Shown here: piece by piece, positions 10,994-55,227 of the stretch
Position numbering within the stretch: the stretch's first letter is position 1
Layout: each line of letters starts with the position of its first letter
NCBI GenBank assembly: GCA_963833505.1
Contig: CAWHYG010000007.1
Coordinates: 195,964 to 259,963 of the forward strand
Length of the DNA: 64,000 nucleotides
Direction: 5' to 3'
From: Candidatus Eiseniibacteriota bacterium
GTDB lineage: Bacteria; Eisenbacteria; RBG-16-71-46; CAIMUX01
Notes under the pieces: generated by a model
Told to the model about the DNA's origin: nothing
Database searches by the model: none
Seen by the model: only the letters and a program-made list of their open reading frames with translations
Program-made: the position numbers and the translations under genes

Positions 10994-12234
10994 CTTTCGA
11001 CTCCGATCCGAGTGATTGTCTTCAACTCGCGAGCCGCGATCCGGGCGGCCAGCATGTGGCCTTCGCGGTTCCAATGCGGGTTCCGCCGGAAGTAGAGCAG
11101 GCCGCCCCGGGCCGCCGCCGCTCGGAAGTCCGGCAGGGGATCGATGACATCGAGCCCGACGTCCCGGCAGAACTGGAGCAGCCGTTGGTTGGGATAATCC
11201 GGATCGAAGTCGCCCGGTTTCAGCCCATAGCGATCCACCACCTGCTTCCACTGGCGGGGATAGACCTGGATCTGCGAGGGAATCAGGAAGAGCACCGGAT
11301 GCGACCCCTCGCGGATCACCGCCTCCCTCCAGGCCTCCAGCAGCGCGAGGGTCAGCTTCCAGGCGGCCTCCTGCGGAGGGGACGGGTGGACGCTCAGAAT
11401 GCCGACCTGGCTCGAGTAGTAGATCATCGGGCTGGAGTAGATCAGGCCGCTCGCTTCCCAGCGACGGGTCAAGGCGGGAATGCGCGAGAGCCAGTCGAAC
11501 ACGCTGGCATAGAGGGCGCTCCTGGCGTCCAGGAAATCGTGCAGGGGAAACGGGGAATGCGTCAGCGAATCGGGCGGGCCGGCGGAATCGGCGGGAGCCA
11601 CCCGGGGCACAGGAACGCCCTTCAGATCCAGCTTGTCGCCGTTGAACACGAAATAGGGTTTGTACAACCCGTACCGCTTGTCCCGGATGTTGTCCTCGAA
11701 GTCGTTGTCAATGGTCAGGGCGAGCAGGACGACGTCCGGCCGGTACCTCCTTCCCTCGGTGGCGTAGAGCAGGAACTCCTGATCCGTGCCGTAGCCGCTG
11801 ACTCCGAGGTTGACGACCTCGGTGTGGTCCAGCTCCTGTTTCAGAAGATCGGCGAAGTTGAATCGGCGCTCGACGCCGTCTCCCATCATGAAGGAGTCGC
11901 CCAGGATCAGGATCCGCCGCTTGCCCGGCTGCCGCTCGTAGGGAATCTCGTCGTCCCGGAATCCGCGGGAATTCGTGGTGATGGTGTGCTCCACCTCCCA
12001 GGTGCGGTGCAGGATGGTAACGTTGGGCTTGAGGGTCCAGCCGAGGAGCTCGTTGTACTGCCCGAGGCGGCCGTCGGTCAGGAACTGGTCGCGCGTGATC
12101 GAGCCCGGATGCCGGTGGCTGCCGCGTTCATAGGGGAGAAAATGCCGCAGGAGCAGCTCACAGGCCATCAGCCCGATCAAGGTGCTGCCGGCCGCCAGAA
12201 GCAGGTTGCTCTGCCAGGGCTTGATCCGGGGCAC
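10990..12234 (-). CDS. SGNH/GDSL-family hydrolase (N-terminal membrane anchor)
   Basis: ORF 10990..12234, 414 aa; motifs ILILGDSFMMG and GVSGYGTDQE typical of SGNH hydrolases/acyl-esterases; N-terminal TM helix. Confidence 0.7.
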   Translation of the reverse strand: MPRIKPWQSNLLLAAGSTLIGLMACELLLRHFLPYERGSHRHPGSITRDQFLTDGRLGQYNELLGWTLKPNVTILHRTWEVEHTITTNSRGFRDDEIPYERQPGKRRILILGDSFMMGDGVERRFNFADLLKQELDHTEVVNLGVSGYGTDQEFLLYATEGRRYRPDVVLLALTIDNDFEDNIRDKRYGLYKPYFVFNGDKLDLKGVPVPRVAPADSAGPPDSLTHSPFPLHDFLDARSALYASVFDWLSRIPALTRRWEASGLIYSSPMIYYSSQVGILSVHPSPPQEAAWKLTLALLEAWREAVIREGSHPVLFLIPSQIQVYPRQWKQVVDRYGLKPGDFDPDYPNQRLLQFCRDVGLDVIDPLPDFRAAAARGGLLYFRRNPHWNREGHMLAARIAARELKTITRIGVER

Positions 12235-17245: not shown

Positions 17246-18325
17246 ATGCCGTTTCCATCTCCCGATCGCCTGGAGTCGATCCTGACCGGTTTTTCCGGTC
17301 AGAAGGTGCTGGTCCTCGGCGACCTCATGCTGGATCGCTACGTCTGGGGAGACACTGCGCGCATTTCCCCGGAAGCGCCGGTCCCGGTCATCGAGGCGCG
17401 GGAAGAGACGGCCCGGCTCGGCGGCGCGGCCAACGTCGCCAGCAATATCCAGGCTCTCGGCGCAGAGCCGCTCCTGGTCGGCGTGACCGGAGCGGACAAC
17501 TTCGGGCAGGAGCTGGTGCGCCTGCTTCGCGGCCGACACATCTCCGCCGGCTGGCTGGTGGCCGATCGGGGCCGCCGCACCACCACGAAGACCCGCATCC
17601 TGGCGCGAAACCAGCAGATCGTCCGGGTGGACCAGGAGGAGACCGCCGAGGTCAACGGCGCGGTCCTGGACTCGGTGCTGGATCGAGCCTCGGCCGCCCT
17701 CGAAAAGGCCGCGGCCTGCGTCATTTCGGACTACGGCAAGGGCGTCATCACGCGCGCTCTTCTCGAGAGCGTGCTCTCGGAGACGAAGTCCCGGGGGATC
17801 CCGGTCTGCGTCGATCCGAAGGAAACGCATTTCTTCTCGTATCGCGGCGTGGCCGTCATCACGCCGAACGCGGCCGAGGCGGGAACGGCTTTCGGCCGGC
17901 GGCTGCGGGATCTGCCGACCCTGCTCGCGGCGGGGCAGCGCCTGCGGTCGGAGCTGGGCTGCCGCGCCGTTCTGATCACCCGCGGCGAGCAGGGCATGAC
18001 GCTTTTCCAGGAGGCGGGTCCGACGCTTCACTTCCCGGCCGTGGCCACCGAGGTCTTCGACGTCACGGGCGCGGGCGACACGGTGGTGAGCGTCTTCGCC
18101 CTCGCTCTGGCCGCCCGGGCCGAGCCGGCGGAAGCCGCCGCGATCGCCAATCATGCCGCGAGCCTGGTCATTCGCGAGGTCGGGACGTCGGCCACGACGG
18201 TGGAAGCGATCCGGCGCTCCTTCGTCGATCAGGGAGGGGCGGATCCCGAGGAATTGCGGGCGGACGGGCCACCGGACGGCGCGCCTGGAGGATCGCCGGA
18301 TGGACCGATCGATTTCCGACCCTGA
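17246..18325 (+). CDS. hldA: D-glycero-beta-D-manno-heptose-7-phosphate kinase (RfaE domain I, carbohydrate kinase)
   Basis: ORF 17246..18325, 359 aa; pfkB-family kinase motifs VLVLGDLMLDRY, PNAAEA, VFDVTGAGDTV; matches HldE N-terminal domain. Confidence 0.85.
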   Translation: MPFPSPDRLESILTGFSGQKVLVLGDLMLDRYVWGDTARISPEAPVPVIEAREETARLGGAANVASNIQALGAEPLLVGVTGADNFGQELVRLLRGRHISAGWLVADRGRRTTTKTRILARNQQIVRVDQEETAEVNGAVLDSVLDRASAALEKAAACVISDYGKGVITRALLESVLSETKSRGIPVCVDPKETHFFSYRGVAVITPNAAEAGTAFGRRLRDLPTLLAAGQRLRSELGCRAVLITRGEQGMTLFQEAGPTLHFPAVATEVFDVTGAGDTVVSVFALALAARAEPAEAAAIANHAASLVIREVGTSATTVEAIRRSFVDQGGADPEELRADGPPDGAPGGSPDGPIDFRP

Positions 18326-23052: not shown

Positions 23053-23604
23053 GTGAACCCATCCGGGCCCTTCGTGCTGTCGCTGCACGACCTCGAAGAG
23101 GGGGAGACGCACCTGGAGATGGTCGGAACCGGTTCCGACCTGGAACTCTCGCGGGACGAGCTGGCGCTGTCCCAGCCGGTCGTGCTGCGCGCCAAGGTCT
23201 TCCGGGCCGCCTACCATGTGGAGGTCCAGGGGACCCTCCTGACGACCGCGGATCTGGTCTGTGATCGCTGTCTCGAACCGATCCGGCGCGCGCTCGAGAT
23301 CCCGTTTCGGGTATTCTCCGAGCGGCAGGAGACCCGGGACCACCGGACCAGACAGGAAATGCGTGAAGAGGATCCCGGGATCGTCTACCATGATGGGCAG
23401 TTTGTGGTTCTGACCGACGAAGTGAGACAGGAGCTTCTGGTGGAGAAGCCCTGGCACGTCGTCTGCCGGCCGGACTGCCTGGGGCTCTGCCCGCGCTGCG
23501 GAGGCAACCGCAACGTGAGCGGCTGCACCTGTCCGGATCGCCGGGATCAGGACAGCCCCGACGCGGAACGCATGGACTCGAAACCAAGAATTGAGTCGGA
23601 GTAG
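23053..23604 (+). CDS. yceD: YceD/DUF177 family protein (large-subunit rRNA accumulation factor)
   Basis: ORF 23053..23604, 183 aa; C-terminal CxxC...CxxC (CDRCLEP ... CLGLCPRCG); conserved position upstream of rpmF-plsX-fab operon. Confidence 0.8.
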   Translation: MNPSGPFVLSLHDLEEGETHLEMVGTGSDLELSRDELALSQPVVLRAKVFRAAYHVEVQGTLLTTADLVCDRCLEPIRRALEIPFRVFSERQETRDHRTRQEMREEDPGIVYHDGQFVVLTDEVRQELLVEKPWHVVCRPDCLGLCPRCGGNRNVSGCTCPDRRDQDSPDAERMDSKPRIESE

Positions 23605-25510
23605 GAACCATGGTCACCCATAGCCCCCTCCACAGAACCGGACGAGCGGGACTACCGCATCCGGCTCCCACCTTGGGTCATCACGCCCAGGCGCTGATTG
23701 GGCCAGGGTTGACAGATCCGGGGAATTGGGAGCCATTGAGTCACCAAGCGTTTCCATCGGACGACCGTGAGCCGCGTCGTCTGACTTCGGCGGCGGAGAC
23801 TCCGCCCCCATCGCCAGGACACCGCGTTGCGGAAGGCCGAGAGGGCCGGTCCGTTTCGAGGCACCCCGTAATAGCGGTAGTGCCCGAGCAGGACCGTCCG
23901 CAGGTAGGCTCCTTGGTCCGGGACGGGGTCGTGCAGTCGCCTCCGGAGTTCGCTGCCGATCTCCTTGAGCTTCGCCTGCCACCGCTTGCGCATCGTCTGC
24001 CGCAGCACCGTGAACTTCCCCCGCCGGGTCTTCCCGCAATGTGCGTGAAGCCAAGGAAGTTGAAGGTCGGGGGCTTCCCGTCCCCCCGATCGCGTCGGTT
24101 CTTCTCGGCGAAGCGACCGAACTCGATCAGGCGGGTCTTTTCCGGGTGCAGCTCCAGCCCGAACTTTGCGAAGCGTTCGCGCAGCTCGACCAGGAACCGC
24201 TCGGCCACGTCTCGATGCTGGAACCCAACCACGAAGTCATCGACAAAACGCACCACGACCACGTCGCCGCGCGCTTGCTTCGTTCTCCATCGCTGGATCC
24301 ACAGGTCGAGAGCATAGTGCAGGTAGACGTTGGCCAGGAGGGGACTGATCGACCCGCCCTGAACCGTGCCCACCCTCCCGGCGATGCGCTTCCCCTCCTC
24401 CAGCACGCCGGCCTTGAGCCACTTCAGGATCAAGCGCACGACCCGCTGGTCCGCGATCCGGTGCTCGATGAATTTCCGCAGCCATCCATGGTCGAGGGTA
24501 TCGAAGAACGACCGGATGTCGGCGTCGAGCACCCAGCTCACCTTCTTCCGTTCGATCCCGACCGTGAGTGCATCCAGCGCTTGATGCGGGCTGCGTCCCG
24601 GTCGGGAACCATAGGAAAATCCGAGGAAGTCGATTTCGTAGATGGCGTTCAACACCTCGACCACCGCACGCTGGACGATCTTGTCCTCCAGCGTCGGAAC
24701 TCCGAGCGGCCGCTGCCGCCCGTCGGTCTTGGGGATGTACGCTCGCCGAACCGGCTTCGCCCGATACGCTCCTCGCTTCAGCCTTTCGGAAAGGTCTCGG
24801 AGGTTCTCTTCCAAGTTTTCCCCGTAGTGCTGCCAGGTCTCGCCGTCGATTCCTGCCGCCGCGTTCTTCTTCAGGGCGAAGTAGCCCGCGCGCAGTCGAT
24901 CCACGTCGTAGACATGGTGCAGGAGCGTGGTGAACCGCTGTTTCCTGTCCTTTCTTGCCGCCTGTCGTACCCGCTCCAGTCCGCTGGGCACGCACTCCCG
25001 GCTCTGTGTCCGGTGCGTGTCGGCTTCGAGCGAGTTCCCCTTGGCCCGACCCCTTCCCTCCATCACCTCCGCCACCGGTCGCCCGGCACCGTTCGGCGAC
25101 TTCCCCGGTACTACGGGTCGGTCCGACCTCCCACCTTCGTCCATCATCGGCGTGCGCCTTTCGGCTTCCCGATGCGGTCTGGGCATACCCTGCTTCCAGA
25201 CGAGGGCGGGATCTCCCGGTTCCCATGCAAGGTGACTCCGAACGTGCTCAGGGCCTCTGACCGCGCGGGGTCCCTCGGCGTCTCGCCATGGCGACGCCCA
25301 GGGTGTGGCCTTCCGCTAACCTCCACAGCGTCGGCACCCCGAAGTGATTCATGGATTACGCGGCTCAATACCCGGCCCGCCCGTACCCCTGTCAACGCTT
25401 CACTCCCGGCCTCGCGGCCGACAGCGCATGACTCGGGGCCATCGTGGGTGGCTGGCCCTTCGATGTATGACTCTTTCATTCACTTCACCTCGCCGGTTTG
25501 ACCGGCGCAC
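23605..25510 (-). mobile_element. bacterial group II intron (~1.9 kb) in antisense orientation between yceD and rpmF
   Basis: Minus strand starts GTGCGCCGG (GUGYG 5' consensus) at 25510; domain-V-like hairpin GAGCCGGAUGCGG-UAGU-CCCGCUCGUCCGGUUC at 23635..23667 with AGC triad; encodes an RT/maturase ORF; 3' boundary approximate (+/-5 nt). Confidence 0.8.
23652..25186 (-). CDS. group II intron-encoded reverse transcriptase/maturase (apparent -1 frameshift after FLGFTHI, near 24010-24040)
   Basis: ORF 23741..25186 carries RT motifs (AAGIDGETW, RRAYIPKTDGRQRPLGVPTLEDKIVQ, VVRFVDDFVVGF, FLGFTHI); ORF 23652..24008 in another frame carries the maturase/X domain (LRQTMRKRWQAKLKEI ... LLGHYRYYGVP); junction reads attgcgggaagacc where ggaaag would restore the frame. 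Confidence 0.85.
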
Positions 25511-44284: not shown

Positions 44285-45079
44285 ATGAAGATTGAGCTTC
44301 TGTTGACCGGCGGGGAGGTTCCTGATTTCCACGCCAAGGGGAGGCGCATCGTGCTGGTGGACGTGCTGCGCGCCGGCACCAGCCTGGCGGTCGCCCTCGA
44401 ATCCGGCGCCGAACGCATCGTGCCCGCGGAGTCGGTTGAAGCGGCCAAGAAGCTGCTGGCGCTGCTGGATCGAAAGAGCACGCTTCTGGCGGGGGAGATG
44501 GACGGAGCCAAGCTTCCGGGCTTCGACCTGGGCAACTCGCCCGGCGAGTTCCGCGACGCCCAGATCGCGGGCAAGACCATCGTCTTCAGCTCCAGCGATG
44601 GAGCGCCGCTCATGGCGCGGATGTGGGACGCGGCCGAGATGCCCCTGCTTTCGTTCGTGAACATCCAGGCCGTGACCGACTATCTGCTGGCCATGGAGGA
44701 GACCGACCTCTCGGTGATCTGCGCGGGCCGGGAAGGCCGCTTCAGCATGGAGGATGCGGTCTGCGCCGGCATGCTCTGCGAGCGGCTCGCCGGGAAGTCG
44801 TCGGATCTCGAGACCAATGACGCGGGCCGGGCCGCCCTGTTGCTCTACCGGGCCCGCGCCGCCGATCTGACCGAAGTGCTGCGGACCTGCTCGAGCGGGC
44901 TTTTCCTCAAGAGCCTGGGGCTGGAGGCGGATCTGGACGAGGCCGCCCGCGTCGACTCGATCCGGCTGGTGCCGGTGGTTCGCGAGGGACGGATCACGGC
45001 GATTCGCCCGCCCTGGCCGGCGCCCGCCGTGGACCCGCCGGTCAGTGGGTCACCTTCCAGAAGAGCAGCCCGCCGATAG
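44285..45079 (+). CDS. 2-phosphosulfolactate phosphatase (ComB) family protein
   Basis: ORF 44285..45079; resemblance to the ComB family (VLVDVLRAGTS ... SSDGAPL ... AGREGRFSMEDAVCAG); assignment from memory, moderate. Confidence 0.6.
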   Translation: MKIELLLTGGEVPDFHAKGRRIVLVDVLRAGTSLAVALESGAERIVPAESVEAAKKLLALLDRKSTLLAGEMDGAKLPGFDLGNSPGEFRDAQIAGKTIVFSSSDGAPLMARMWDAAEMPLLSFVNIQAVTDYLLAMEETDLSVICAGREGRFSMEDAVCAGMLCERLAGKSSDLETNDAGRAALLLYRARAADLTEVLRTCSSGLFLKSLGLEADLDEAARVDSIRLVPVVREGRITAIRPPWPAPAVDPPVSGSPSRRAARR

Positions 45080-46151
45080 CTCCGAAGACCAGATTCCCGA
45101 GCCAGGCCGCCAGCATCGGGGGAAGATCCCCGTTGTACCCCAGCGCCTGGCCGACTCGGATGAAGGAGAAGTAGGCGAACCCCACCGAGACGCTGATGCC
45201 GAATCCCAGCGCCAGGTTGCCGCCCCGGACCACCCGGAGGGACAGGGCGGTCCCGAGCAGGACCATGATCAGGTTGGCCAGGGGGAACGAGGCGCGGAGA
45301 TGGAAGTTCGTCATGTGCTTCTGAACGCCCCCGCCGCTTTCCCGCACCCGCCGCGCGAAGGCGAGCAGGTTCTTCATGCTCATGTGAAAGGGATCCTCGT
45401 TCAAGCGGGCGAAGTCTCCCGGCACCTCCGCCAGCGAGCTGTTGCCGTAGTACTGGAAGTGGAGGACGGTCTCGGAGGAATCGCGGAAGGACCGGTCGTA
45501 GCCGCGAAAGAAGCGCCAGGTCCCTTGCAGGTACTCGGCCGACTCCGCGTCGATCCTCCGGCGGATCTCCGGCCGTTGGATGAACTGGAGGGAGACGCCG
45601 CGAAGGGCCTGGGCTCCCGCGTCGTAGTACTGGGCCACGTAGAAGCGCCTCTGGGCGCCCAGGAACCGGACCTCGGTCTGGCTCTCGCGGTCGGCGTCGG
45701 ACTGCTTTCGGATCTCCTCGGAGAGAATGCGCTGCTGTCGCGCGTAGCTCGACGGACCGATGGCTTCGTTCATGACGTACTGGCCGATCGAGACCAGGAG
45801 GGCGGTCAGGAGCAGCGGCCGGGCCAGGCGCCATGGGCTTTCTCCCGCTCCCTGCATGGCGGTGACCTCGTTGTTCTTCCGGAGCGCGCTCAATCCCAAG
45901 AGGGCGCCGAGCAGAAGCGCCAGGGGCAGCACCTCGGTCAGGGTGGTGGGCAGCCCGTTGCCGTAGTAGCGGAGGACCATGAGAGGCGTGGCGTGGTTGT
46001 CCACGAAGACGTCGAGCTTCTCGAAGAGGTCGACGATGATGAACAGGCCGACGAAGCTGACCAGCCCGAGGAGGGAGTAGCCCAGGAACTCCCGGAGCAG
46101 GTATCGGTCGAGGATTCTCACGCCGATCCTTCCGCCGCCGCCCCGTCTCAT
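45042..46151 (-). CDS. LptF/LptG-family LPS export permease (YjgP/YjgQ)
   Basis: Second half of ORF 45042..47522; starts MRRGGGGRIGVRILDRYLLREFLG (ATGA overlap with upstream stop); N-terminal TM helices, periplasmic domain, C-terminal TM helices. Confidence 0.75.
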   Translation of the reverse strand: MRRGGGGRIGVRILDRYLLREFLGYSLLGLVSFVGLFIIVDLFEKLDVFVDNHATPLMVLRYYGNGLPTTLTEVLPLALLLGALLGLSALRKNNEVTAMQGAGESPWRLARPLLLTALLVSIGQYVMNEAIGPSSYARQQRILSEEIRKQSDADRESQTEVRFLGAQRRFYVAQYYDAGAQALRGVSLQFIQRPEIRRRIDAESAEYLQGTWRFFRGYDRSFRDSSETVLHFQYYGNSSLAEVPGDFARLNEDPFHMSMKNLLAFARRVRESGGGVQKHMTNFHLRASFPLANLIMVLLGTALSLRVVRGGNLALGFGISVSVGFAYFSFIRVGQALGYNGDLPPMLAAWLGNLVFGAIGGLLFWKVTH

Positions 46152-47522
46152 ATCGACCGGGCCCGCGCGCGGCGGGCCGGCTGGCCCGAAGTGATGGCCC
46201 GGGCCGTCAGGTAGAGACCGAGGAGGCCGAGGACGATGTTCGGAAGCCACATCGCCAGCCAGGGGGAGATGATCAGGCGGTCGGCCAGTTGCTCGCCTCC
46301 GACCAGGCAAAGGTAGTAGAACAGGAAGAAGACCACGCTGAAGAACGCCGCCGCCATCCCTCCGCGCCGGGCCATGGTTCCGAGCGGGGCGCCCACGAGA
46401 ACGAACACGATGCAGGCGACCGGAATCGAGAGCTTCTTCTGGATCTCGACCCGGTAGCTGCTGATCTGGCGTTTGACCGAGCTGATCTCGTCCATTCTGG
46501 GATCGGATCTTCTCGGCCTCGAGCTTCTGCTCCGACGTCCAGCTCGGGGGAGCGCCGGAAGGCACGGCGGGAGCACGGTGGCGGAGGGCGCCGAGCAGGA
46601 CGGCCGCTTGGAGGAGGGGAACGGGATAGACCCGATTCAGGTCGGCCAGGCTCTTGACCGGAAGTTTCGTCATCTCCTGCCGGATGAGCGTGTCCTGCCG
46701 CGCCTGCTCGGTCCGGAGCGTGCGCACGGCGGCCTCCATGGCCGGGATCGACATCTCCCGCTGGCCGCGCTGATGTTCCATCGTGGTCCGGAACTGATCG
46801 GTCGGGTCGCTGATGTTGAGGGTCTGGGCGTCGAAACGGAGCCGCCGATACTCGCCCGTCGTCGAGGTCGGATCGGCCTCGTGGATCTCGCCGTCCACGA
46901 GGTCCAGCGTGAGCGAGTTCGTGTCCGCGCGGAACCGGAGCGTACCGGTGCGCGCCAGGATGGTCCTCGGCGAGATCGGATGGGTTCTCCCGTCCAGGAT
47001 GAGCACATCCCGCATCGCTCCGGTGGCGTCGTCCAGGTGGCCGATCCAGAGGTCGTACCCCCGGAAGTCGGTGATCATCACCCCCTCGCGGATCTGGGCG
47101 GTCGGGTGCTTCCGGGAGACGTCGCTCAAGGTCTGCGAGTATCCGTAGTTCATGTCGGGCAGGATGTAGTTGTTGAAGAGCGCCAGCACCCCGGCCACAA
47201 TCACGGAAGCTGCAAGCGCCGGGCGCAGCACGGTCATGAGGTGGACGCCGCTGGCCCGGATCGCGATGATCTCGTTGTCCTGGCTAAGGCGGCCGAAGGT
47301 CATCAGGACGGAGACCAGGACTCCGCAAGGCACGGAGAGGGCGACCATCCAGCCGAGGGCCAGGACGAAGAGCTTGAGGACGATCCAGGCGCCGACGCCC
47401 TTGACGATGAGGAGCTCCAGAAGGTCCAGGAGCATGTCGATCGTCAGGAGAAAGGTCACGAAGCCGAACCCGATGAAGAACGGCCCGACCAGGGATCGGG
47501 CCACATAGCGTTTCAGGATCAT
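46148..47522 (-). CDS. LptF/LptG-family LPS export permease (apparent frameshift ~46500-46600)
   Basis: N-terminal 300 aa in the frame of ORF 45042..47522 (MILKRYVARSLVGPFFIGFGF ...); C-terminal TM region in the frame of ORF 46148..46576 (EIQKKLSIPVACIVFVLVGAPLG ... LGLLGLYL); a G5 run at 46546-46550 lies in the switch region. Confidence 0.7.
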
Positions 47523-47718: not shown

Positions 47719-50700
47719 TTGAAGCGACGATCCGGAATGATCCGGCGCCGAAGCTCCGGAGTCTGCGCCCTCTTCCTGCTCCTTCTGTTCGCGGCGGGGC
47801 CAACCGGTCCCCGGAGAACTGGAGCGGAGTCGGAGTTTGCCGTGCCCGGCGGCGCGGCCGCTCATCCGGCGGACGGGGCGGGAGCTCCCGCATCCGATCC
47901 GGGGCGGGGTGCGGATGAGACGCAGCCTGATTCCGCCAAGGTCGCGCCTCCGGACACCCTGCCCGCGCCTCGCGCCAGGCCGATTCCCCCGGTCTCGAAC
48001 TCCGCGGCTCGGCCGGATTCCGCGCGGTCGGTGGGTCCGGACACGCTGCCGGCGTCCCATCCCACGCCGGCTCCGCAGGCGGCCACGACCGCGGCTCGGC
48101 CGGATTCCGCGCGGTCGGTGGGTCCGGACACGCTGCCGGCGTCCTATCCCACGCCGGCTCCGCAGGCGGCCACGACCGCGGCTCGGCCGGATTCCGCGCG
48201 GTCGGCGCGTCCGGACACGCTGCCGCCTTCCAATCCGGCGCCGGCTCCGCAGGCGGCCACGGCCGCCGCTCGAGCCGATTCCTTCCGGGTGGCCCTGCCC
48301 GACACCCTGCCGATCCCAGCCCCGGTGGAGGAGATCACCTCCTCCGACACCAGCCGAGCCGGCCTACCTGTTGAGAATCCAGCGCAACCGGACACCTCCA
48401 AGGGCCGCGGGACCAAAGCGGCTCCGGTGGCGGCTGCGGGAGTCCTGGCTGCCGCGCTCGCCGCCGGCGATACGGCGGCCGTCCGCCAGGCGTTCGCGCA
48501 ATTTCCGTTCTGGGTTCCGCCCCCGGGACTGTGCCCGAGTCAACAGGCGTTTCTCTTTCGGGTCGTCTCCGAGGAGCGGTGGGCCGACGTCATCCGGACC
48601 GGAGGGTTTCTCAAGCCTGAGATCCAGATGCGTGAAGACAGCCTGACCGCGCGGCTCATCATCCCGGAGGCGCCTCGCCTGAGCCTTGCCGACCAGGTGA
48701 CCCAGCAGGCGTCACCCCACGCCGACGACGGCGCGATCGAGCTCACGCGGACGGTCCGGGACACGCCGGTGGAGCCTCCGGTTCGAATGACCCAGGCCGA
48801 ATACCTGTCGCGTCTGACCCAGACGCAGTTCCGGCAGTTCTGGAAGGAGACGGTGGATCAGAGCCTCCGGAACAACGCGACCCAGGAAAACGGCCGGAAA
48901 GGGCTGCTCCGATTCGATCTGCCCGTCCAGCTTCCCTCGCAGCTTCAGACCATCTTCGGGGCCGGCAATCCCGATCTGTCCTGGCGCGGAAGCGAGAAGA
49001 TGTCGTTCGGCGGCACTTCCATCTGGCATCCCAATCTGATTGCCAACGAAATCGCCGCCAAGGAGTCGAAGTTCCCCCAGCTCGAGATGAAGCAGGACCT
49101 GAACTTCTCCCTCACCGGCACGATCGGGGACAAGGTCTCGGTGGACCTCGATCAGGCGACCGACACGGCCACGCCGCTCGCGAACAAGATCAAGATCCGC
49201 TACAAGGGATACGACGACGAGGTCGTCCAGAAGATCGATCTCGGCAACACCAGCCTGAGCCTGCCGGGCACGCAGTACGCCACCTACAGCGGAAACGTCG
49301 AAGGCCTGTTCGGAATCAACGCCCTGTCGCGCCTGGGCCCGGTCGACGTCACGACCATCCTCTCGAAGCAGGAGGGGCAGAACGAGTCGAAGACGGTGAG
49401 CGCCGCGGCCGAAACGAAGACGATCCAGATCAACGACATGGACTACATCGCGGGGAAGTACTTCTTCCTGCGCACTCCGAACGGTTGTCCCTGGCAGCTC
49501 GACCAGAACTCGCTCAGCGTCTTCCTCGACGACAAGAACGGATCCAACGACGTGCAGCAGGGAGCGATTCCGGGGAAAGCGACCCTGGACGGCAACTCCG
49601 CCGACGGCGGCCACAGCTATCCGGGCATGTTCTACCGGCTCCAGCCGGGACCGCCTCCCGACGGCCAGTACGAGATCCAGAATGACGTCTACACCGGCCA
49701 GCCGGTGCTGATCCTGAATGACGCACTGAACGACCGGTACGCCCTCGCCGTGACCTACGCCGGCTGGTATCTCGACGCCAACCTCCACCCCGACCAGGGC
49801 AGCCCGATCCACGTCGGTCAGATCGCGGCGGACACGCTGCGGCTCGAGTTGCTCCGTCCTTCCGTCTCCGATCTCTCGACCAATCGGAGGCAGGGAACCT
49901 GGGGCCCGCTGGCCAACCTGGAGCTTCGCAACATGTACGATCTCCAGGCTCGAGGGATCCTGAAAGCCGGGTTCCAGCTTCACATCCGGTTGAAGAGCTC
50001 AAGCGGCGGAGTCGTCGAGCCCGACCGGATCGGGCAGACCACCTTCCTGCAGATGACGGCTCTCGACCTGTCCAAGCAGACCGACACCGGTTACTCGCCC
50101 GGCCGCGACGACCTGGTCGACGACCAGTTCATCAGCTATCAAAACGGGATTCTCCACTTCCCGGACCTTCGACCCTTCGATCCCGACTCGTCCGACCTGG
50201 GGTTGCCTCCGGTACGCTGCAACGGTTTCGCCTACGCCCGCTATGGTCCGGCCAGCCCGGCCGATCCGACCGATTGGGTGAACTCGACCCTCCGGACCTA
50301 TGACACCCAGACGGCCTACCGCCCCAGGGTGCTGCCGATGTCGCCCGACTCGGCCAGCCTGTTCCGGGCGCCCGCCATCTATGACAACGTGATCCGCCAG
50401 GACACCGACAGCCGCTACTACCTGGAGATCACCTACAGCAGTCCGGTCAGCAAGATCGATCTCGGCGCCGTCGGGATCCTGGCGGGCAGCGAAACGGTGA
50501 CGGCGGGGGCGAGGACCCTGGTGCGGGACCGCGACTATCGGATCGACTACGACGTCGGGGAGGTCGAGATCCTTCCGGCCGCCGGCATCACCGAGTCGGA
50601 CCAGATCCACGTGACCTACTCCTATCTGCCGTTCGCCGGCACGGGCGGACAGAAGACGCTGTTCGGCACCGCCGCCTCCTATGCGCCCGAGCAGGGCAAT

Positions 50701-53700
50701 CTGTCCTTGTCGACCGCCTGGCTCTTCCAGAGCCAGGGCGGCGTTTCCGGCATCGAAGGGAACCGGCCCCGCCTGGGCCAGGAGCCGTCCCGCACGCTGG
50801 TGGGAGAGGTGGCCGGAACGTACAAGACCGACTCCAGGCTGATCACGAAGCTCATCGACGACATTCCGGGAGTGGACACGCGCCTCCCGACCAAGATCGA
50901 CCTGGCGGTCGGAGCCGGCATCTCCGTGCCGAACCCGAACACGAAGAACGTCCTTTACATCGACGACTTCGATGGAGTGAAGGACGACACGCCGCTCAGC
51001 ATGAACCGGCTGTCCTGGCGATGGAGCTCCATCCCGGGATCGGACCTGACCGGCGCCGCCCTCCAGACGAAGGCGAATCGACATGGGGAGCTGTGGTGGT
51101 ACTCCCCGCGCAACATCGTGCATGAGAGGGATCTCCAGCCGACGCTGGACCAGCAGGAGGGCGAGAACAGCCACCAGGTCATGATGCTGCAGTTCTATCC
51201 GCACGTTCCGGACACGGACAGTCCCGACAGTTCCTGGGCCGGGCTCACCACGCCGATCTCGGTCACCGGCCAGGACTTCTCTCGCGCCCAGTTCCTCGAC
51301 ATCTGGGTCAACGACTTCATCCAGTGGCCCGACGTCCTGCACCGGCGCCGCGGCAAGCTGCACATCGACCTGGGCAAGGTGAGCGAAGACGCCATGTGGT
51401 ACAAGAACGACCCGTCCGCTCCGGCTGACCAGTGGAAGGTCGTGCTCCCGAATGGAAAGCTCGACACCGAGGACGCCAACCGGGACGGCAAGCTCGACCA
51501 GACGGAGGACGTTGGTCTGGACGGCATCAAGCACGGCGATCCGGGGGCCGATCCCAACGACGTCTATCAGTACGATGACAGCGCCCCGGAGTCCGACCAG
51601 AAGTACGCGCACGTCAACGGGACCGAGGGCAACCAGATTCTCGACACCGAGGACCTGGACGGCGACGGCCAGCTCGAGACCCAGAACTCCTACTTCGAAA
51701 TCACCGTGGATCTGGGGGACTCGACCCTGTGGCAGACCGACGTCTACCGCGACTATCCGGGCTACCGTGGCAAGCTCGATTCGTCCAACGGCTGGCGCCG
51801 GATCCGCATCCCCCTGCAGGTGGACACCCTGGTCCATCCGGTGTACGACTTCGCCGCCGGTCCTCCGGTCTGGGCCAAGATCTTTCACGCGCGCCTCTGG
51901 GTCTCCGGGCTCTCGGCTCCGACCCAGATCGAGCTGGGCGGCATCGACATCACCGGCAATCGGTGGTTCCAGAGCCAGATCGCCGACTTGAGGGGCCGCC
52001 TGCTGCCCGACAGCGCCCTGGCGCCGGGGGAGAGCTTCTTCATCGGGACGGTGAACAACAAGGACGACGCGTCCATCTATCAGTCGCCGGTGACGATCCA
52101 GAAGGACGCCAACAACATCCCCGAGCAGGAGCAGTCCATCACGCTGAACCTCACCGAGTTCCAGCCCGGGCACGCGGCCACCATCTACCGGACGTATCCG
52201 GACCGCCAGGACTACACCTTGTACAACGACATGCAGTACTACGTGAGCGGATACAACCAGGGGAGCTCCAATCTGGTCTGCGGGGTGCGGCTCTGCCGGG
52301 ACGCGGTCTCCGATTCGGCCAACTATTACGAGTATCAGATCCCGGTGAAGTCCGAATGGCAGCTCGTCGACATCAATCTGGCCGCCCTGAGCCGGCTGCA
52401 GCTTTTGCGTCCCGACACGGTCAGCGGCATGGTGGCGCAGGATCTCGGTAACGGCGTCCGCATGATCCGGCGGGGAGCGCCCTCGTTGAACAGCGTCCAG
52501 AGGATCAGCTTCGTCGTGTACAACACGGGGAGCTTCCCGGTGACCCAGGGGAGCGTCTGGATCGACGAGCTGCGTCTGACCGACGTCAAGAAGGACGTGG
52601 GGCTCGCGGCCCGCATGCACCTGGGGGCGGATCTCGGCGGCCTGGCCCGTCTGGACCTGAGCTACCAGCGCACGGGGGCCGACTTCCTCACGGTGGGAGC
52701 GGATCGCGGCAGCGGCACCACGACGACGACCTGGGGTTTCGCCGGGTCGAGCGACAACCTGTTCGGATTCGGCGACCGTCTGGGCCTGAACCTGCCGGTC
52801 CACGTGACCTACAACGACACGCGGGCCGTGCCGAAGTTCCGCCCGAACAGCGACCTCATCCTGGACACGCCCCGGACCGGCGACATCTCGGTGACCAACA
52901 GCGAGGAGTTTTCGTTCACCGCCCAGCGGAAGCAGTCCCCGGAGTGGTGGAGCCGGTATCTGCTCGAGCCCTTCTCCTTGAGCGGGCGCGTGAATCGGTC
53001 GCTCGATCTCGAGCCCACCAGCCAGGACACCTCGGTGACCCGGAGCGGCTCGGTGGCCTGGAACTTCTCTCTCGAGCAATGGGGGGACATCGGGCTGAGC
53101 CAGAAGATGAAACTCCGCCTGATCCCCACCATGCTGTCCGCCACGGTGACCGGCGCGACCACGCAGGACCGGCGCTATTACCGGAGCGACGTCAATTCGG
53201 ACTACGCGCCTCAGCCCAGCCAGGACCTGACCTCCGCTGGCCTCGCCTTGTCTGCGGCTGCCCGGCCCTTGACGCCGGTGACCTATCGCATCGACAGCAC
53301 GCGCGATCTCATGCTCCACGAGGGGGAGATGAAGCTGTTCGGCATGAACCTGGGGGAGGAGACGGCGCGCCACCACCAGCTCAGCGCTTCAACCGACATT
53401 CCAATCCTGAGACAGATCCTGTCCCCGAGGGTGTCCTGGTCGGGCAACTCCGGTCTGGCCGCCGCCATCCAGACCTCGGTGCTGCCGGGGGAACCCGCGC
53501 GGCAGCTCTCCTTCAACAACTCGCGAACGACGGACTGGGGGGGACGCCTCTCGCTGCCCGATCTGTTCCACGGCCTGACCACCTTCGGGCGCCGTCGCGC
53601 CGCCCAGGACACAACCGGCGGAAAGGGGTCGCGGGCCAATGGAGCTTCACCGCTCCCCGGGTCTCTGGCTCCGAACGCGCCCCCGCCCGCGCCTTCCGGA

Positions 53701-55227
53701 CGGTTTCCTTCGCCCGGCCGGTTGTCGAATCCAGAGCCGGGCGGCGCGCCGGACTCGAATCCTGGTTCTCGTTTCTCGAACCCGCCGTCGGGCGGCCCAT
53801 CGTTCTCGAACCCGATGCCTGGCGCGGACCAGAATCCGACCTCGAACCCGGCTACGAATCCGGAAACGAGCCCGGCCACGAACCCGACGACCAACCCGCC
53901 CACGAATCCGGCAACGAGCCCGGCTACCAACCCCGCGACGAACCTGGCAACAGGCCCGGCCACGAATCCGGCAACGAGCCCGGCCACGAACCCGACGACG
54001 AATCCCCCAACGAACCCAGCGCCCGCCACGAACCAGAGGTCACCGGTCTCGGGTCCGGATTTGCCGATCGCCCCGGAATCCCCACCGGTGCCTCCGGGGC
54101 TTCCGTATCAGCCGCCGGAGCCCGAGCCCGCCCAGCCCGGGGCGGAGGGCACCCCGCCAAGTGGCGGGACCGCCCAGCCGTCTCCCTCGGCGCAACCGGG
54201 AAATGAGGCCGCTCAGTCGCCCGCCGGCGCAACCCAGAACCCGGCGCCGGGAACGAAACCACCGCCGTCGCCTCACGCCGGGTCCCTGGCCCGCCAGCTG
54301 GGCGTGAGCTTCATGTCCCTCGGCGCCATCGAGATCTCCTACGGTCTCAGCACCCAGACGAGCTACTCGAGCCAGAAAGGGGAGCCGAGTCTCTTCTACC
54401 AGCTTGCGTTCGTGAACAGTCCGGGGCCGGGCGCTCAGGCGCTGAGTCGCGCCACCGCCACCGAGACCAACTCGCAAACCCTCGACCTGAGCACCAACCT
54501 CAAGCTTCCCCGGGCGATCAATGTTGCGCCGCGGTACTCCCGTTCGACCGGTCAAACGGCCACGAACGGACTCACGACGATGACCAACGACCTCAAGTGG
54601 CCCGATCTCGACATCAGCTGGGGCAATCTGTACCAGGCGATCGGATTGGGCAGATGGTTCCAGGGCTTCCAGGCGAACACCCACTACAGCAAGGAGAGGC
54701 GGATCCAGGGTTCGACCGACTACCCGGAGACGAACCTGACCTCGGGCTATTCTCCGCTGCTCAACGTCAACGCCACGTTCAAATCGGGCGTGACCGCCAC
54801 CCTGAATTCCAGCTACACCTCCACCTCCGACCTGCTTACGGGCGCGGGCGAGGCCGGCGGGTACGAAACCGAAAACGACACGGACCACCTGCAATGGACG
54901 ATCACCTTCAAAAAGACCTTGAACCTGACGAAGAAGATCGCCGTGCCGATGACCAAGGAAGTCAAGACGGTGCAGACGAGGGTCGATCTCAACGCGAGCC
55001 TCGACTACATCGCCGACAAGCGGGAAACCCGAGCCTCCGGCCAGCCTCCGGTGGTGACCGACAACCGCGCGAGCGTCAAGTTCGAAGCCGGCCTGGGCTA
55101 TCAGTTCACCCAACGGATCAACGGAACCGGGTCGCTCAACTTCGGCAAGGACGTCGACAAGAAGAACGACGCCAATTCCGTGAATCAGCTCGGACTCGTC
55201 TTCACCGTCACCTTCTCGCTGGACTGA
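47719..55227 (+). CDS. sprA: giant outer-membrane protein, SprA-like (candidate type IX secretion translocon), 2502 aa
   Basis: ORF 47719..55227 with no internal stop; signal peptide; beta-rich throughout, ending in a beta-barrel-like C-terminus (...QLGLVFTVTFSLD); calcium-binding-like DxDxDG repeats; size matches SprA (~2400 aa); family assignment is from memory, not a search. Confidence 0.6.
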   Translation: MKRRSGMIRRRSSGVCALFLLLLFAAGPTGPRRTGAESEFAVPGGAAAHPADGAGAPASDPGRGADETQPDSAKVAPPDTLPAPRARPIPPVSNSAARPDSARSVGPDTLPASHPTPAPQAATTAARPDSARSVGPDTLPASYPTPAPQAATTAARPDSARSARPDTLPPSNPAPAPQAATAAARADSFRVALPDTLPIPAPVEEITSSDTSRAGLPVENPAQPDTSKGRGTKAAPVAAAGVLAAALAAGDTAAVRQAFAQFPFWVPPPGLCPSQQAFLFRVVSEERWADVIRTGGFLKPEIQMREDSLTARLIIPEAPRLSLADQVTQQASPHADDGAIELTRTVRDTPVEPPVRMTQAEYLSRLTQTQFRQFWKETVDQSLRNNATQENGRKGLLRFDLPVQLPSQLQTIFGAGNPDLSWRGSEKMSFGGTSIWHPNLIANEIAAKESKFPQLEMKQDLNFSLTGTIGDKVSVDLDQATDTATPLANKIKIRYKGYDDEVVQKIDLGNTSLSLPGTQYATYSGNVEGLFGINALSRLGPVDVTTILSKQEGQNESKTVSAAAETKTIQINDMDYIAGKYFFLRTPNGCPWQLDQNSLSVFLDDKNGSNDVQQGAIPGKATLDGNSADGGHSYPGMFYRLQPGPPPDGQYEIQNDVYTGQPVLILNDALNDRYALAVTYAGWYLDANLHPDQGSPIHVGQIAADTLRLELLRPSVSDLSTNRRQGTWGPLANLELRNMYDLQARGILKAGFQLHIRLKSSSGGVVEPDRIGQTTFLQMTALDLSKQTDTGYSPGRDDLVDDQFISYQNGILHFPDLRPFDPDSSDLGLPPVRCNGFAYARYGPASPADPTDWVNSTLRTYDTQTAYRPRVLPMSPDSASLFRAPAIYDNVIRQDTDSRYYLEITYSSPVSKIDLGAVGILAGSETVTAGARTLVRDRDYRIDYDVGEVEILPAAGITESDQIHVTYSYLPFAGTGGQKTLFGTAASYAPEQGNLSLSTAWLFQSQGGVSGIEGNRPRLGQEPSRTLVGEVAGTYKTDSRLITKLIDDIPGVDTRLPTKIDLAVGAGISVPNPNTKNVLYIDDFDGVKDDTPLSMNRLSWRWSSIPGSDLTGAALQTKANRHGELWWYSPRNIVHERDLQPTLDQQEGENSHQVMMLQFYPHVPDTDSPDSSWAGLTTPISVTGQDFSRAQFLDIWVNDFIQWPDVLHRRRGKLHIDLGKVSEDAMWYKNDPSAPADQWKVVLPNGKLDTEDANRDGKLDQTEDVGLDGIKHGDPGADPNDVYQYDDSAPESDQKYAHVNGTEGNQILDTEDLDGDGQLETQNSYFEITVDLGDSTLWQTDVYRDYPGYRGKLDSSNGWRRIRIPLQVDTLVHPVYDFAAGPPVWAKIFHARLWVSGLSAPTQIELGGIDITGNRWFQSQIADLRGRLLPDSALAPGESFFIGTVNNKDDASIYQSPVTIQKDANNIPEQEQSITLNLTEFQPGHAATIYRTYPDRQDYTLYNDMQYYVSGYNQGSSNLVCGVRLCRDAVSDSANYYEYQIPVKSEWQLVDINLAALSRLQLLRPDTVSGMVAQDLGNGVRMIRRGAPSLNSVQRISFVVYNTGSFPVTQGSVWIDELRLTDVKKDVGLAARMHLGADLGGLARLDLSYQRTGADFLTVGADRGSGTTTTTWGFAGSSDNLFGFGDRLGLNLPVHVTYNDTRAVPKFRPNSDLILDTPRTGDISVTNSEEFSFTAQRKQSPEWWSRYLLEPFSLSGRVNRSLDLEPTSQDTSVTRSGSVAWNFSLEQWGDIGLSQKMKLRLIPTMLSATVTGATTQDRRYYRSDVNSDYAPQPSQDLTSAGLALSAAARPLTPVTYRIDSTRDLMLHEGEMKLFGMNLGEETARHHQLSASTDIPILRQILSPRVSWSGNSGLAAAIQTSVLPGEPARQLSFNNSRTTDWGGRLSLPDLFHGLTTFGRRRAAQDTTGGKGSRANGASPLPGSLAPNAPPPAPSGRFPSPGRLSNPEPGGAPDSNPGSRFSNPPSGGPSFSNPMPGADQNPTSNPATNPETSPATNPTTNPPTNPATSPATNPATNLATGPATNPATSPATNPTTNPPTNPAPATNQRSPVSGPDLPIAPESPPVPPGLPYQPPEPEPAQPGAEGTPPSGGTAQPSPSAQPGNEAAQSPAGATQNPAPGTKPPPSPHAGSLARQLGVSFMSLGAIEISYGLSTQTSYSSQKGEPSLFYQLAFVNSPGPGAQALSRATATETNSQTLDLSTNLKLPRAINVAPRYSRSTGQTATNGLTTMTNDLKWPDLDISWGNLYQAIGLGRWFQGFQANTHYSKERRIQGSTDYPETNLTSGYSPLLNVNATFKSGVTATLNSSYTSTSDLLTGAGEAGGYETENDTDHLQWTITFKKTLNLTKKIAVPMTKEVKTVQTRVDLNASLDYIADKRETRASGQPPVVTDNRASVKFEAGLGYQFTQRINGTGSLNFGKDVDKKNDANSVNQLGLVFTVTFSLD
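48007..48267 (+). repeat. in-frame 87-bp tandem repeat x3 (29-aa unit ARPDSARSVGPDTLPASHPTPAPQAATTA) in the N-terminus of the SprA-like gene
   Basis: Three near-identical copies (1-2 nt differences) seen in both nucleotide and protein sequence. Confidence 0.85.
53640..54270 (+). repeat. low-complexity Pro/Thr/Asn/Ser-rich region with short tandem units (TNPA/ATNP) inside the SprA-like gene
   Basis: Translation ...NPATNPETSPATNPTTNPPTNPATSPATNPATNLATGPATNPATSPATNPTTNPPTNPAP...; ~66-bp units repeated at DNA level. Confidence 0.8.

What the first reader, a model, noticed from the sequence alone, without database searches (positions are those of the whole stretch)
48007..48267. Near-perfect in-frame 87-bp triplication in the N-terminus of the SprA-like gene
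Three 29-aa copies differ by only 1-2 nt, implying very recent expansion or ongoing copy-number change by slipped-strand or recombination events. This is a potential length-variable surface-exposed segment of an outer-membrane protein.
Basis: seen in the sequence. Interest (0 to 1): 0.45.

Follow-up and report, generated by a model that had tools for sequence, protein, structure and literature searches.

The report
Repeat-built sugar-site tail on SprA translocon
The 87-base triplication is real but ordinary: it lengthens a floppy tail, most likely on the periplasmic side, of a type 9 secretion pore protein, and each copy adds two short motifs matching the protein-glycosylation signal used by Bacteroidota.

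Summary
The repeat is real and in frame. It is a five-unit 87-bp array (47914-48348), not a clean triplication. Units 1 and 2 differ by 1-2 nt. Unit 3 differs from them by 7-9 nt. Two flanking units are only about 50-60% identical to the centre.

The array lies in a gene (47737-55227, +) that meets the SprA/Sov type 9 secretion translocon models, in a genome related to Candidatus Eisenbacteria. It encodes part of a ~230-residue Ala/Pro-rich tail between the signal peptide and the first conserved helices. AlphaFold2 predicts this tail to be disordered.

In Flavobacterium johnsoniae the SprA N terminus is periplasmic, so "surface-exposed" is not supported.

Every unit keeps PDSA(R/K) (DSF in the last) and PDTLP. 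D-(S/T)-(A/I/L/V/M/T) is the Bacteroidota O-glycosylation sequon. It is about 7.6-fold enriched in the unalignable tails of all 13 orthologues; control motifs are not. Across 101 SprA lineages the enrichment rises with tail length.

Best reading: slippage or unequal recombination lengthens a periplasmic, probably O-glycosylated, spacer. Glycosylation is inferred, not shown. Copy-number variation could not be tested because no close relative exists in any collection. Interest is modest.

The parts
47737..55227 (+). SprA/Sov-family type 9 secretion outer-membrane translocon gene (2,496 codons from the ATG at 47737, plus the stop codon).
   Evidence: The ORF is listed and translated. It matches TIGR04189 at 4.9e-142 (475 bits, cutoff 200) and PF14349 SprA_N at 2.9e-15. 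It matches PDB 6H3I/6H3J SprA at 2e-30 and 1.9e-61 with a profile. The deposited protein P0001 starts at a GTG 35 codons further in and so lacks the signal peptide. I prefer the ATG because an outer-membrane barrel needs a signal peptide and the orthologues have one ahead of the same kind of tail.
47737..47802 (+). Signal-peptide-like N terminus (MIRRRSSGVCALFLLLLFAAGP).
   Evidence: The sequence is. The strongest hydrophobic 12-residue window scores 12/12. It is the only helix in the first 229 residues of the AlphaFold2 model (residues 9-18).
47797..48486 (+). N-terminal tail, residues 21-250: 24% Ala, 18% Pro, predicted to be disordered. It is additional to what F. johnsoniae SprA has.
   Evidence: In the AlphaFold2 model, residues 1-229 have pLDDT below 50 (block means 26-44) and no secondary structure after the signal helix. 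F. johnsoniae SprA residues 62-66 onward align only from query residue ~337-340. The tail holds 10 D[ST][AILVMT] sites against 1.2 expected.
47914..48000 (+). Repeat unit 0 (diverged): DETQPDSAKVAPPDTLPAPRARPIPPVSN.
   Evidence: It is in register at 87-nt spacing and is 56-60% identical to the central units. It keeps the DSA and DTL motifs.
48001..48087 (+). Repeat unit 1: SAARPDSARSVGPDTLPASHPTPAPQAAT.
   Evidence: It differs from unit 2 by 2 nt, both nonsynonymous.
48088..48174 (+). Repeat unit 2: TAARPDSARSVGPDTLPASYPTPAPQAAT.
48175..48261 (+). Repeat unit 3: TAARPDSARSARPDTLPPSNPAPAPQAAT.
   Evidence: It differs from units 2 and 1 by 7 and 8 nt. Against unit 2 that is 5 nonsynonymous codons and 1 synonymous codon. 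None of the changes touches DSA or DTL.
48262..48348 (+). Repeat unit 4 (diverged): AAARADSFRVALPDTLPIPAPVEEITSSD.
   Evidence: It is in register and 49-54% identical to the central units. It keeps DTL. Its first motif is DSF, which fits only the extended motif reported for Tannerella forsythia (PMC11611037).
48637..48645 (+). D301-S-L: a single sequon in the conserved N-terminal region.
   Evidence: A canonical D[ST][AILVMT] occupies this alignment column in 10 of 10 orthologues, with S/T and I/V/A/L variation. D301 is invariant in alignment A1.

Best explanation
What is shown:
- The 87-bp array is five in-frame 29-codon units: three young central units and two old flanking ones.
- It lies inside a ~230-residue Ala/Pro-rich tail that AlphaFold2 predicts to be disordered. 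The tail sits between the signal peptide and the first conserved helices of an Eisenbacteria-type SprA/Sov T9SS translocon.
- Each unit carries two D-(S/T)-hydrophobic triplets, PDSA(R/K) and PDTLP.
- The same triplet is the only feature shared with the otherwise unalignable tails of the orthologues.

What is inferred:
1. The tail hangs in the periplasm, by homology with the F. johnsoniae SprA N terminus.
2. The triplets are acceptor sites for a Bacteroidota-type general O-glycosylation system, whose sequon is D-(S/T)-(A/I/L/V/M/T). The tail would then be a glycan-decorated, protease-resistant flexible spacer below the translocon.
3. Replication slippage or unequal recombination between 87-nt units adds or removes 29 residues and two sequons at a time. 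The last such event is recent (1-2 nt of divergence), an earlier one is older (7-9 nt), and the array itself is ancient (flanking units ~50-60% identical).

The triplication itself may be nearly neutral. Selection appears to act on sequon content and disorder rather than on the exact sequence or copy number.
For: Repeat anatomy and reading frame.

Gene identity.

Disorder: (residues 1-229 have pLDDT below 50 and are coil).

Periplasmic N terminus of SprA: PMC10994853.

Sequon definition, and the fact that glycosylated sites mostly face the periplasm: PMC12871550, PMC8729774, PMC11611037.

Sequon enrichment in the tail:
- Window protein: 10 observed against 1.2 expected. It is still 6 against 0.79 (p <= 5e-5) after collapsing the three young copies to one.
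- All 13 Eisenbacteria-type proteins (the window protein and 12 orthologues): 92 observed against 12.1 expected, each with p <= 0.0015.
- Controls in the same tails: reversed motif 8 against 12.0; N[ST]x 2 against 1.0; D[ST][other] 14 against 19.9; D[AG]x 8 against 16.6.
- Density is 4.35 per 100 aa in the tail against 0.53 in the rest of the protein.

Across 101 SprA representatives at no more than 50% mutual identity, the upstream region shows 2.87-fold enrichment. The ratio rises with upstream length from 1.48-fold (under 140 aa) to 5.29-fold (250 aa or more). The reverse motif is at 0.77-fold and D[ST][other] at 0.63-fold.

The substitutions between units are almost all nonsynonymous but never touch the two triplets. 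PDTLP is identical in all five units.

Orthologues carry unrelated in-frame arrays in the same tail: period 42 x 2.8, period 15 x 3.9, and period 15 x 3.7 copies. More distant SprA proteins carry DSLLA, DTTGQ and APVDSVFADSLAV arrays.
Against: - No glycan has been observed. Eisenbacteria are uncultured, and the oligosaccharyltransferase of the Bacteroidota system is unidentified (PMC12871550), so its presence cannot be checked by homology.
- The review reports motif enrichment mainly in Bacteroidota and Fibrobacterota and does not mention Eisenbacteria.
- Signal-peptide or transmembrane proteins encoded near SprA in the window and in nine Eisenbacteria loci show no sequon enrichment (1.08-fold, against 1.11-fold for the other proteins). 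Most of them are inner-membrane permeases, so this test has little power.
- Periplasmic location is by homology at about 25% identity, and the tail itself has no counterpart in the solved structure.
- The shuffle tests keep composition but not local repeat structure, so internal repeats in some orthologues inflate their counts.
- Codon-position GC in the tail does not show the usual third-position signal because of its Ala/Pro/Arg/Gly content. Translation of the tail therefore rests on the signal peptide and on the orthologues.
Confidence: 0.5

Rival explanations
1. Neutral low-complexity growth. The tail is a tolerant disordered linker in a GC-rich gene. The 87-bp units expand and contract by slippage with no effect on function, and the D-S/T-hydrophobic triplets have no role.
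For: Differences between units are almost all nonsynonymous. Tails cannot be aligned between orthologues, and each has its own repeats. The same gene holds a second, lineage-specific 210-residue low-complexity insert with a 12-nt array. F. johnsoniae SprA works without such a tail.
Against: A purely neutral tail would not keep one specific triplet about 7.6-fold over composition in 13 of 13 orthologues while the reversed and near-miss triplets stay at or below expectation. It would also not show enrichment that rises with tail length across 101 lineages. PDTLP is invariant even in the two units that are otherwise about 50% diverged.
Confidence: 0.25
2. The D-S/T-hydrophobic triplets are peptide docking motifs rather than glycosylation sites. 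Each unit would bind a periplasmic partner directly, for example a Skp-like chaperone, the SprE/PorW TPR scaffold, or peptidoglycan. Duplication would then raise avidity.
For: The F. johnsoniae SprA N terminus is a disordered polypeptide captured by SkpA and contacts SprE (PMC10994853). Latescibacteria and Krumholzibacteriia SprA proteins keep two such triplets in a short conserved N-terminal segment, LY[DTL]YRDR..[DSV]. That pattern could be structural.
Against: The motif occurs in very different contexts: proline-flanked here, Ala/Leu-rich in P0022, and Gly/Gln-flanked in P0017. Only the three sequon positions are constrained. That fits an enzyme sequon better than a binding interface. No partner gene is linked in the window.
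Confidence: 0.15
3. One reading: a surface-exposed, length-variable segment of an outer-membrane protein that changes copy number between cells or strains (antigenic or length variation).
For: Units 1 and 2 are near-identical, and the exact direct repeats of up to 60 nt would allow frequent slippage.
Against: The SprA N terminus is periplasmic in the only solved system. The unit length is a multiple of 3, so there is no on/off switching. The sequon reading also points to the periplasm, where such sites are mostly found. No variant copy number was found, because no close relative exists in any collection searched.
Confidence: 0.07
4. Assembly artefact: the copy number, or the near-identity of units 1 and 2, was produced by mis-assembly or polishing of a short tandem repeat.
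For: Tandem near-identical units are a classic place for assembly errors. Reads were not available.
Against: The whole array is only 435 bp and the young part 261 bp, so single reads can span it. The reading frame is kept across it. The same protein is deposited from a 2.45-Mb contig.
Confidence: 0.03

Closest known systems
Flavobacterium johnsoniae SprA / Porphyromonas gingivalis Sov (T9SS outer-membrane translocon; PDB 6H3I, 8GL6)
   Same: It belongs to the same family by the NCBIfam equivalog model and Pfam. It is of similar size and has a signal peptide. Its N-terminal segment precedes the barrel and is disordered on its own. In F. johnsoniae that segment is periplasmic and is held by SkpA.
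   Different: Identity is about 22-25%. This protein has roughly 230 extra tail residues, built partly from 87-bp repeats, ahead of a clade-specific helical region. F. johnsoniae SprA has only about 40 residues before the aligned core. It also has a 210-residue insert near residue 1964. The host is an Eisenbacteria-type bacterium, not Bacteroidota.
Bacteroidota general protein O-glycosylation at D-(S/T)-(A/I/L/V/M/T), for example on SprE/PorW, PorE, LptD and TamA
   Same: The three-residue motif is identical. The protein is noncytoplasmic. The sites lie in a soluble, flexible region expected to face the periplasm. T9SS components in Bacteroidota are known substrates, and glycosylation stabilises SprE.
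   Different: Glycosylation has not been demonstrated here, and the phylum lies outside the range where the system has been shown. Sequon density (4.35 per 100 residues, in tandem units) is far above the 0.53 per 100 residues in the rest of this protein, so the tail looks more like a mucin-type array.
In-frame minisatellite repeats in bacterial envelope proteins (for example the Staphylococcus aureus protein A Xr region and the group B Streptococcus alpha C protein; from general knowledge, not tested here)
   Same: Tandem units have a length that is a multiple of three. The central units are homogenised and the edge units diverged. The units lie in a low-complexity Pro-rich spacer. Change is expected to occur by slippage or unequal recombination.
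   Different: Those repeats are in wall-spanning or exposed regions and are known to vary between strains. Here the region is probably periplasmic and no variation data exist.
Eukaryotic mucin PTS tandem repeats
   Same: Both are disordered Pro/Ala/Ser/Thr-rich tandem units whose main conserved property is the density of O-glycosylation acceptor sites. Both arise by lineage-specific expansion.
   Different: This is an analogy only. The enzymes and cellular compartment are unrelated, and the repeat number here is far smaller.

Membership tests
SprA/Sov T9SS translocon | Scores above the curated cutoff of the equivalog model TIGR04189 (surface_SprA). | tested here: met
   475.1 bits against a cutoff of 200, E = 4.9e-142.
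SprA/Sov T9SS translocon | Pfam SprA_N (PF14349) domain above the gathering score. | tested here: met
   56.6 bits against 27. All 40 strongest homologues carry PF14349.
SprA/Sov T9SS translocon | Sequence similarity to the solved SprA structure. | tested here: met
   6H3I/6H3J at 2e-30 with the single sequence and 1.9e-61 with a profile, in three collinear stretches.
SprA/Sov T9SS translocon | Very large (36-strand) outer-membrane beta-barrel fold. | not tested
   Only residues 1-620 were modelled, at low confidence (mean pLDDT 49). The full length exceeds the predictor's limit.
SprA/Sov T9SS translocon | Other T9SS components (PorV, GldKLMN, SprE, SprT, PorU) and cargo proteins bearing the T9SS C-terminal secretion-signal domain in the same genome. 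| not testable with these tools
   None is in the 64-kb window. The neighbours are a fused LptF/LptG gene, rimP, nusA and infB. The rest of the genome could not be fetched.
Substrate of Bacteroidota-type general O-glycosylation | Protein exported beyond the cytoplasm. | tested here: met
   Signal-peptide-like N terminus and membership of an outer-membrane protein family.
Substrate of Bacteroidota-type general O-glycosylation | Presence of D-(S/T)-(A/I/L/V/M/T) sequons in soluble, accessible regions. | tested here: met
   There are 10 sites in the disordered tail against 1.2 expected. The enrichment recurs in 13 of 13 Eisenbacteria-type SprA proteins (window plus 12 orthologues) and rises with tail length across 101 lineages.
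Substrate of Bacteroidota-type general O-glycosylation | Organism-wide excess of the sequon in noncytoplasmic proteins. | tested here: inconclusive
   17 signal-peptide or transmembrane proteins from the window and nine Eisenbacteria loci gave 15 observed against 13.9 expected (1.08-fold), compared with 1.11-fold for 78 other proteins. The sample is dominated by inner-membrane permeases. The folded part of SprA across 101 lineages is at 1.47-fold.
Substrate of Bacteroidota-type general O-glycosylation | Glycosylation machinery present (core-glycan oligosaccharyltransferase, flippase, lfg-like glycosyltransferase locus). | not testable with these tools
   The oligosaccharyltransferase, the ligase and the core flippase are still unidentified (PMC12871550). 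The window holds two tandem PMT_2 (GT-C) + TPR genes. These are only candidates.
Substrate of Bacteroidota-type general O-glycosylation | Glycan actually attached to the S/T of the motif. | not testable with these tools
   This needs glycoproteomics or heterologous expression.
Variable-number tandem repeat / contingency locus | Near-identical head-to-tail units. | tested here: met
   Units 1 and 2 are 97.7-98.9% identical and unit 3 is 90-92% identical to them.
Variable-number tandem repeat / contingency locus | Copy number differs between strains or within a population. | not testable with these tools
   No sequence closer than about 53% protein identity was found in any collection. The repeat's 28-mer was absent from the metagenome contigs.
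Variable-number tandem repeat / contingency locus | A unit length that shifts the reading frame (on/off phase variation). | tested here: not met
   The period is 87 = 3 x 29, so any copy-number change keeps the frame.

The most novel reading that the evidence does not exclude
A Bacteroidota-type, sequon-directed general O-glycosylation system operates well outside Bacteroidota, in Eisenbacteria and other Fibrobacterota-Chlorobiota-Bacteroidota (FCB) group lineages that carry T9SS. In those lineages the SprA translocon repeatedly evolves a mucin-like, heavily glycosylated periplasmic tail by tandem duplication of sequon-bearing units. The 87-bp array is a snapshot of that process. The two PMT_2 + TPR GT-C genes in the same window would then be candidates for the long-sought oligosaccharyltransferase.
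Probability: 0.35. Interest if true: 0.6.

Novelty: new variant of a known kind. Interest (0 to 1): 0.35.

Why it matters
The triplication by itself is an ordinary in-frame minisatellite in a disordered linker. It matters mainly as a clear example of how such tails grow.

The wider pattern is more useful. SprA tails in many non-Bacteroidota lineages are dense arrays of the exact Bacteroidota O-glycosylation sequon. This bears on an open question raised in the field's own review (PMC12871550): where this glycosylation system originated and how far it extends.

If the tails are glycosylated, they would be compact, sequon-rich test substrates. They would also suggest an unrecognised periplasmic appendage on the T9SS translocon.

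Tried and rejected
1. Close relatives for a copy-number comparison. None of these gave one:
- The exact protein could not be located on a retrievable contig.
- Single-protein scans of genome contigs and metagenome contigs found no relative.
- A 28-nt exact repeat pattern in metagenome contigs gave 0 hits.
- The 90%-identity cluster of the protein has one member, and the next best homologue is 53% identical.

2. A protein search with the 145-residue array found nothing, not even the protein itself. The query is too low in complexity, so the result says nothing about whether the unit occurs elsewhere.

3. A neighbourhood test for organism-wide sequon enrichment was inconclusive because there are too few true periplasmic proteins.

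4. An RNA or regulatory reading of the repeat was rejected. Rfam finds nothing there. There are no promoter-like or terminator-like sites inside it. The other five reading frames are interrupted by stop codons.

5. An internal start after the repeat, which would make the repeat non-coding, was rejected. There is no suitable start codon with a signal peptide downstream, and the orthologues have a signal peptide or lipobox ahead of the same kind of tail.

6. The taxonomy of the distant DSL-array SprA proteins (P0022, P0028) could not be obtained from their records.
Full report
**Observation**

Tandem Repeats Finder reports one array at 48002-48282 with period 87, 3.2 copies, 93% matches and score 462. 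In codon register the three central units are 48001-48087, 48088-48174 and 48175-48261. Units 1 and 2 differ by 2 nt. Unit 3 differs from them by 8 and 7 nt.

A gapless repeat search shows that the 87-nt register continues one unit further on each side. Unit 47914-48000 is 56-60% identical to the centre, and unit 48262-48348 is 49-54% identical. The feature is therefore a five-unit array with a young centre and old edges, not three copies that all differ by 1-2 nt.

A degenerate pattern for the unit core occurs only at these three places in the window, against 0 expected in shuffles. Exact direct repeats of up to 60 nt at an offset of 87 nt are present.

**The gene**

The array lies in a 2,502-codon ORF at 47719-55227 on the + strand. 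The ATG at 47737 gives MIRRRSSGVCALFLLLLFAAGP, a signal-peptide-like start. The identical deposited protein (P0001, from a 2.45-Mb contig) was called from a GTG 35 codons later and lacks the signal peptide.

The protein meets the NCBIfam equivalog for the T9SS translocon Sov/SprA (TIGR04189, 475 bits against a cutoff of 200) and Pfam SprA_N. It matches the solved F. johnsoniae SprA (6H3I/6H3J) at 2e-30 with the single sequence and at 1.9e-61 with a profile.

The nearest named genomes are Candidatus Eisenbacteria assemblies at 41-49% identity. Nothing closer than 53% exists among 5.8 billion protein clusters.

The neighbours are a fused LptF/LptG gene (divergent, and syntenic in the orthologues), then rimP, nusA and infB. 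They are not other T9SS genes.

**Where the repeat sits in the protein**

- F. johnsoniae SprA residues 62-66 onward align to query residues ~337-340 onward.
- Ahead of that, the Eisenbacteria-type proteins share a ~90-residue helical region (query 231-336).
- Ahead of that again lies a tail of about 100-230 residues that cannot be aligned between orthologues.
- The repeat (residues 60-204) is in this tail.

The tail is 24% Ala and 18% Pro. In an AlphaFold2 model built with 14 homologues, residues 1-229 have pLDDT below 50 and no secondary structure apart from the signal helix.

In the F. johnsoniae Extended Translocon, the SprA N terminus projects into the periplasm. It is disordered on its own and is enclosed by a SkpA trimer (PMC10994853). 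By homology the tail here is periplasmic.

**What the units conserve**

All five units contain P-D-T-L-P. Four contain D-S-A-(R/K) and the fifth has D-S-F. The substitutions between the young units are 2 nonsynonymous (units 1 and 2) and 5 nonsynonymous plus 1 synonymous (units 2 and 3). None touches these triplets.

D-(S/T)-(A/I/L/V/M/T) is the acceptor motif of the general O-glycosylation system of Bacteroidota. That system modifies noncytoplasmic proteins, mostly on periplasm-facing soluble regions, and its substrates include T9SS components such as SprE/PorW (PMC12871550, PMC8729774, PMC10994853, PMC11611037).

I tested whether the motif exceeds what composition predicts:

- The window's tail has 10 sites against 1.2 expected from composition-preserving shuffles. 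After collapsing the three young units to one, it still has 6 against 0.79 (p <= 5e-5).
- In the tails of all 13 Eisenbacteria-type proteins the total is 92 against 12.1 expected. Each protein has p <= 0.0015.
- Controls in the same tails are not enriched: reversed motif 8 against 12.0, N[ST]x 2 against 1.0, D[ST][other] 14 against 19.9, D[AG]x 8 against 16.6. E[ST]x is about 2-fold.
- Density is 4.35 per 100 residues in the tail and 0.53 in the rest of the protein.
- One sequon in the conserved region, D301-S-L, is canonical in 10 of 10 orthologues, with S/T and I/V/A/L variation.

**Generality**

The orthologues have their own unrelated in-frame arrays in the same tail: period 42 x 2.8, period 15 x 3.9 and period 15 x 3.7 copies. 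More distant SprA proteins carry N-terminal arrays such as DSLLA repeats, DTTGQ x 4 and APVDSVFADSLAV x 4.

I ran an exhaustive HMMER search of the conserved core against 1.84 billion representatives. Of the best 150 hits, 101 have an intact N terminus with a signal sequence. In these, the region between the signal and the core holds 130 sequons against 45.2 expected (2.87-fold). The reversed motif is at 0.77-fold, D[ST][other] at 0.63-fold, and the sequon in the rest of the protein at 1.47-fold. Enrichment rises with the length of the upstream region:

| Upstream length | Proteins | Sequon observed/expected |
|---|---|---|
| under 140 aa | 70 | 1.48 |
| 140-180 aa | 17 | 2.59 |
| 180-250 aa | 6 | 4.82 |
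| 250 aa or more | 8 | 5.29 |

Latescibacteria and Krumholzibacteriia SprA proteins have no long tail but keep two sequons in a short N-terminal segment. Whenever SprA grows an N-terminal tail, that tail tends to be sequon-rich. The window's array is one lineage-specific instance.

**Mechanism**

Shown: an in-frame array with graded unit ages, a tail predicted to be disordered, and motif enrichment.

Inferred: the units duplicate by slippage or unequal recombination. Each added unit brings 29 residues and two acceptor sites. The tail lies in the periplasm and is O-glycosylated, forming a flexible, protease-resistant spacer beneath the translocon.

I give this full reading about 0.5. The anatomy alone is near certain.

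Weaknesses:
- No glycan evidence exists.
- The oligosaccharyltransferase is unknown, so the machinery cannot be searched for.
- A neighbourhood test for organism-wide sequon excess was flat, though underpowered.
- Periplasmic location rests on homology alone.

**Rivals**

- Neutral low-complexity growth (0.25). It fits the triplication itself but not the motif statistics.
- The triplets are docking motifs for Skp, SprE or another partner (0.15).
- Assembly artefact (0.03).

**Copy-number change**

This could not be tested. The exact protein could not be traced to a retrievable contig. Protein-based scans of genome and metagenome contigs found no close relative. A 28-nt repeat pattern had no metagenome hit. 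The orthologues do not share the triplication, so the expansion post-dates a deep split at about 50% identity.

**Verdict**

The feature is real and correctly placed in a SprA gene, but it is described too cleanly and is placed on the wrong side of the membrane. As a repeat it is ordinary. Its content links it to a broader pattern, not reported in the literature I searched, of sequon-array tails on SprA outside Bacteroidota. That pattern is worth a modest follow-up. Interest 0.35; a new variant of a known kind.

Noticed in passing
window 53626-54255 (array at 53832-54017): The same SprA gene has a second lineage-specific low-complexity insert of 210 residues (1964-2173), rich in Pro/Ser/Asn/Thr and absent from 10 of 10 orthologues. 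It contains a 12/36-nt in-frame array of about 15.5 copies encoding (T/S)NPA. It starts just after a DTT sequon (D1958), a position where 5 of 10 orthologues carry a canonical DS(T/A) sequon.
   Followed up: partly
window 12338-14257 (-) and 14260-16212 (-): Two tandem paralogous genes encode an N-terminal PMT_2 (GT-C glycosyltransferase, protein-mannosyltransferase-like) membrane domain plus C-terminal TPR repeats. A GDSL/AlgX-like gene (10993-12234) sits next to them and a heptose-7-phosphate kinase gene lies nearby (17246-18322). They are possible periplasmic protein glycosyltransferases and bear on the glycosylation hypothesis, but they lie 32 kb from the repeat.
   Followed up: partly
window 23595-25474 (-): Rfam gathering-score hits to group II intron domains: RF02005 at 25251-25474 and RF00029 at 23595-23669. 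A 481-residue ORF lies between them (23741-25186, - strand). This looks like an intact group II intron with its own encoded protein.
   Followed up: no
window 47737 vs 47842: The deposited protein for this gene (P0001, 2,461 aa) starts at a GTG preceded by GGAG-like sequence. That start removes the signal peptide. The ATG at 47737 restores it. This is a probable start-codon mis-annotation in the public record.
   Followed up: partly
window 45045-47522 (-); loci L001, L002, L004, L006, L007, L008 upstream of SprA: A gene with two LptF/LptG permease domains (826 aa; a fused LptF-LptG) lies divergently upstream of SprA. LptF/LptG-type genes hold the same position in several Eisenbacteria loci, so the LPS-export permease and the T9SS translocon are conserved neighbours.
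   Followed up: no
L001, L002, L003, L006, L008 (SprA N termini): Several Eisenbacteria SprA orthologues have a Cys directly after the signal-peptide hydrophobic stretch (for example LLVASC|G and LVVGC|L). This suggests lipoprotein-type SprA in those lineages. The window's protein has no such lipobox.
   Followed up: no
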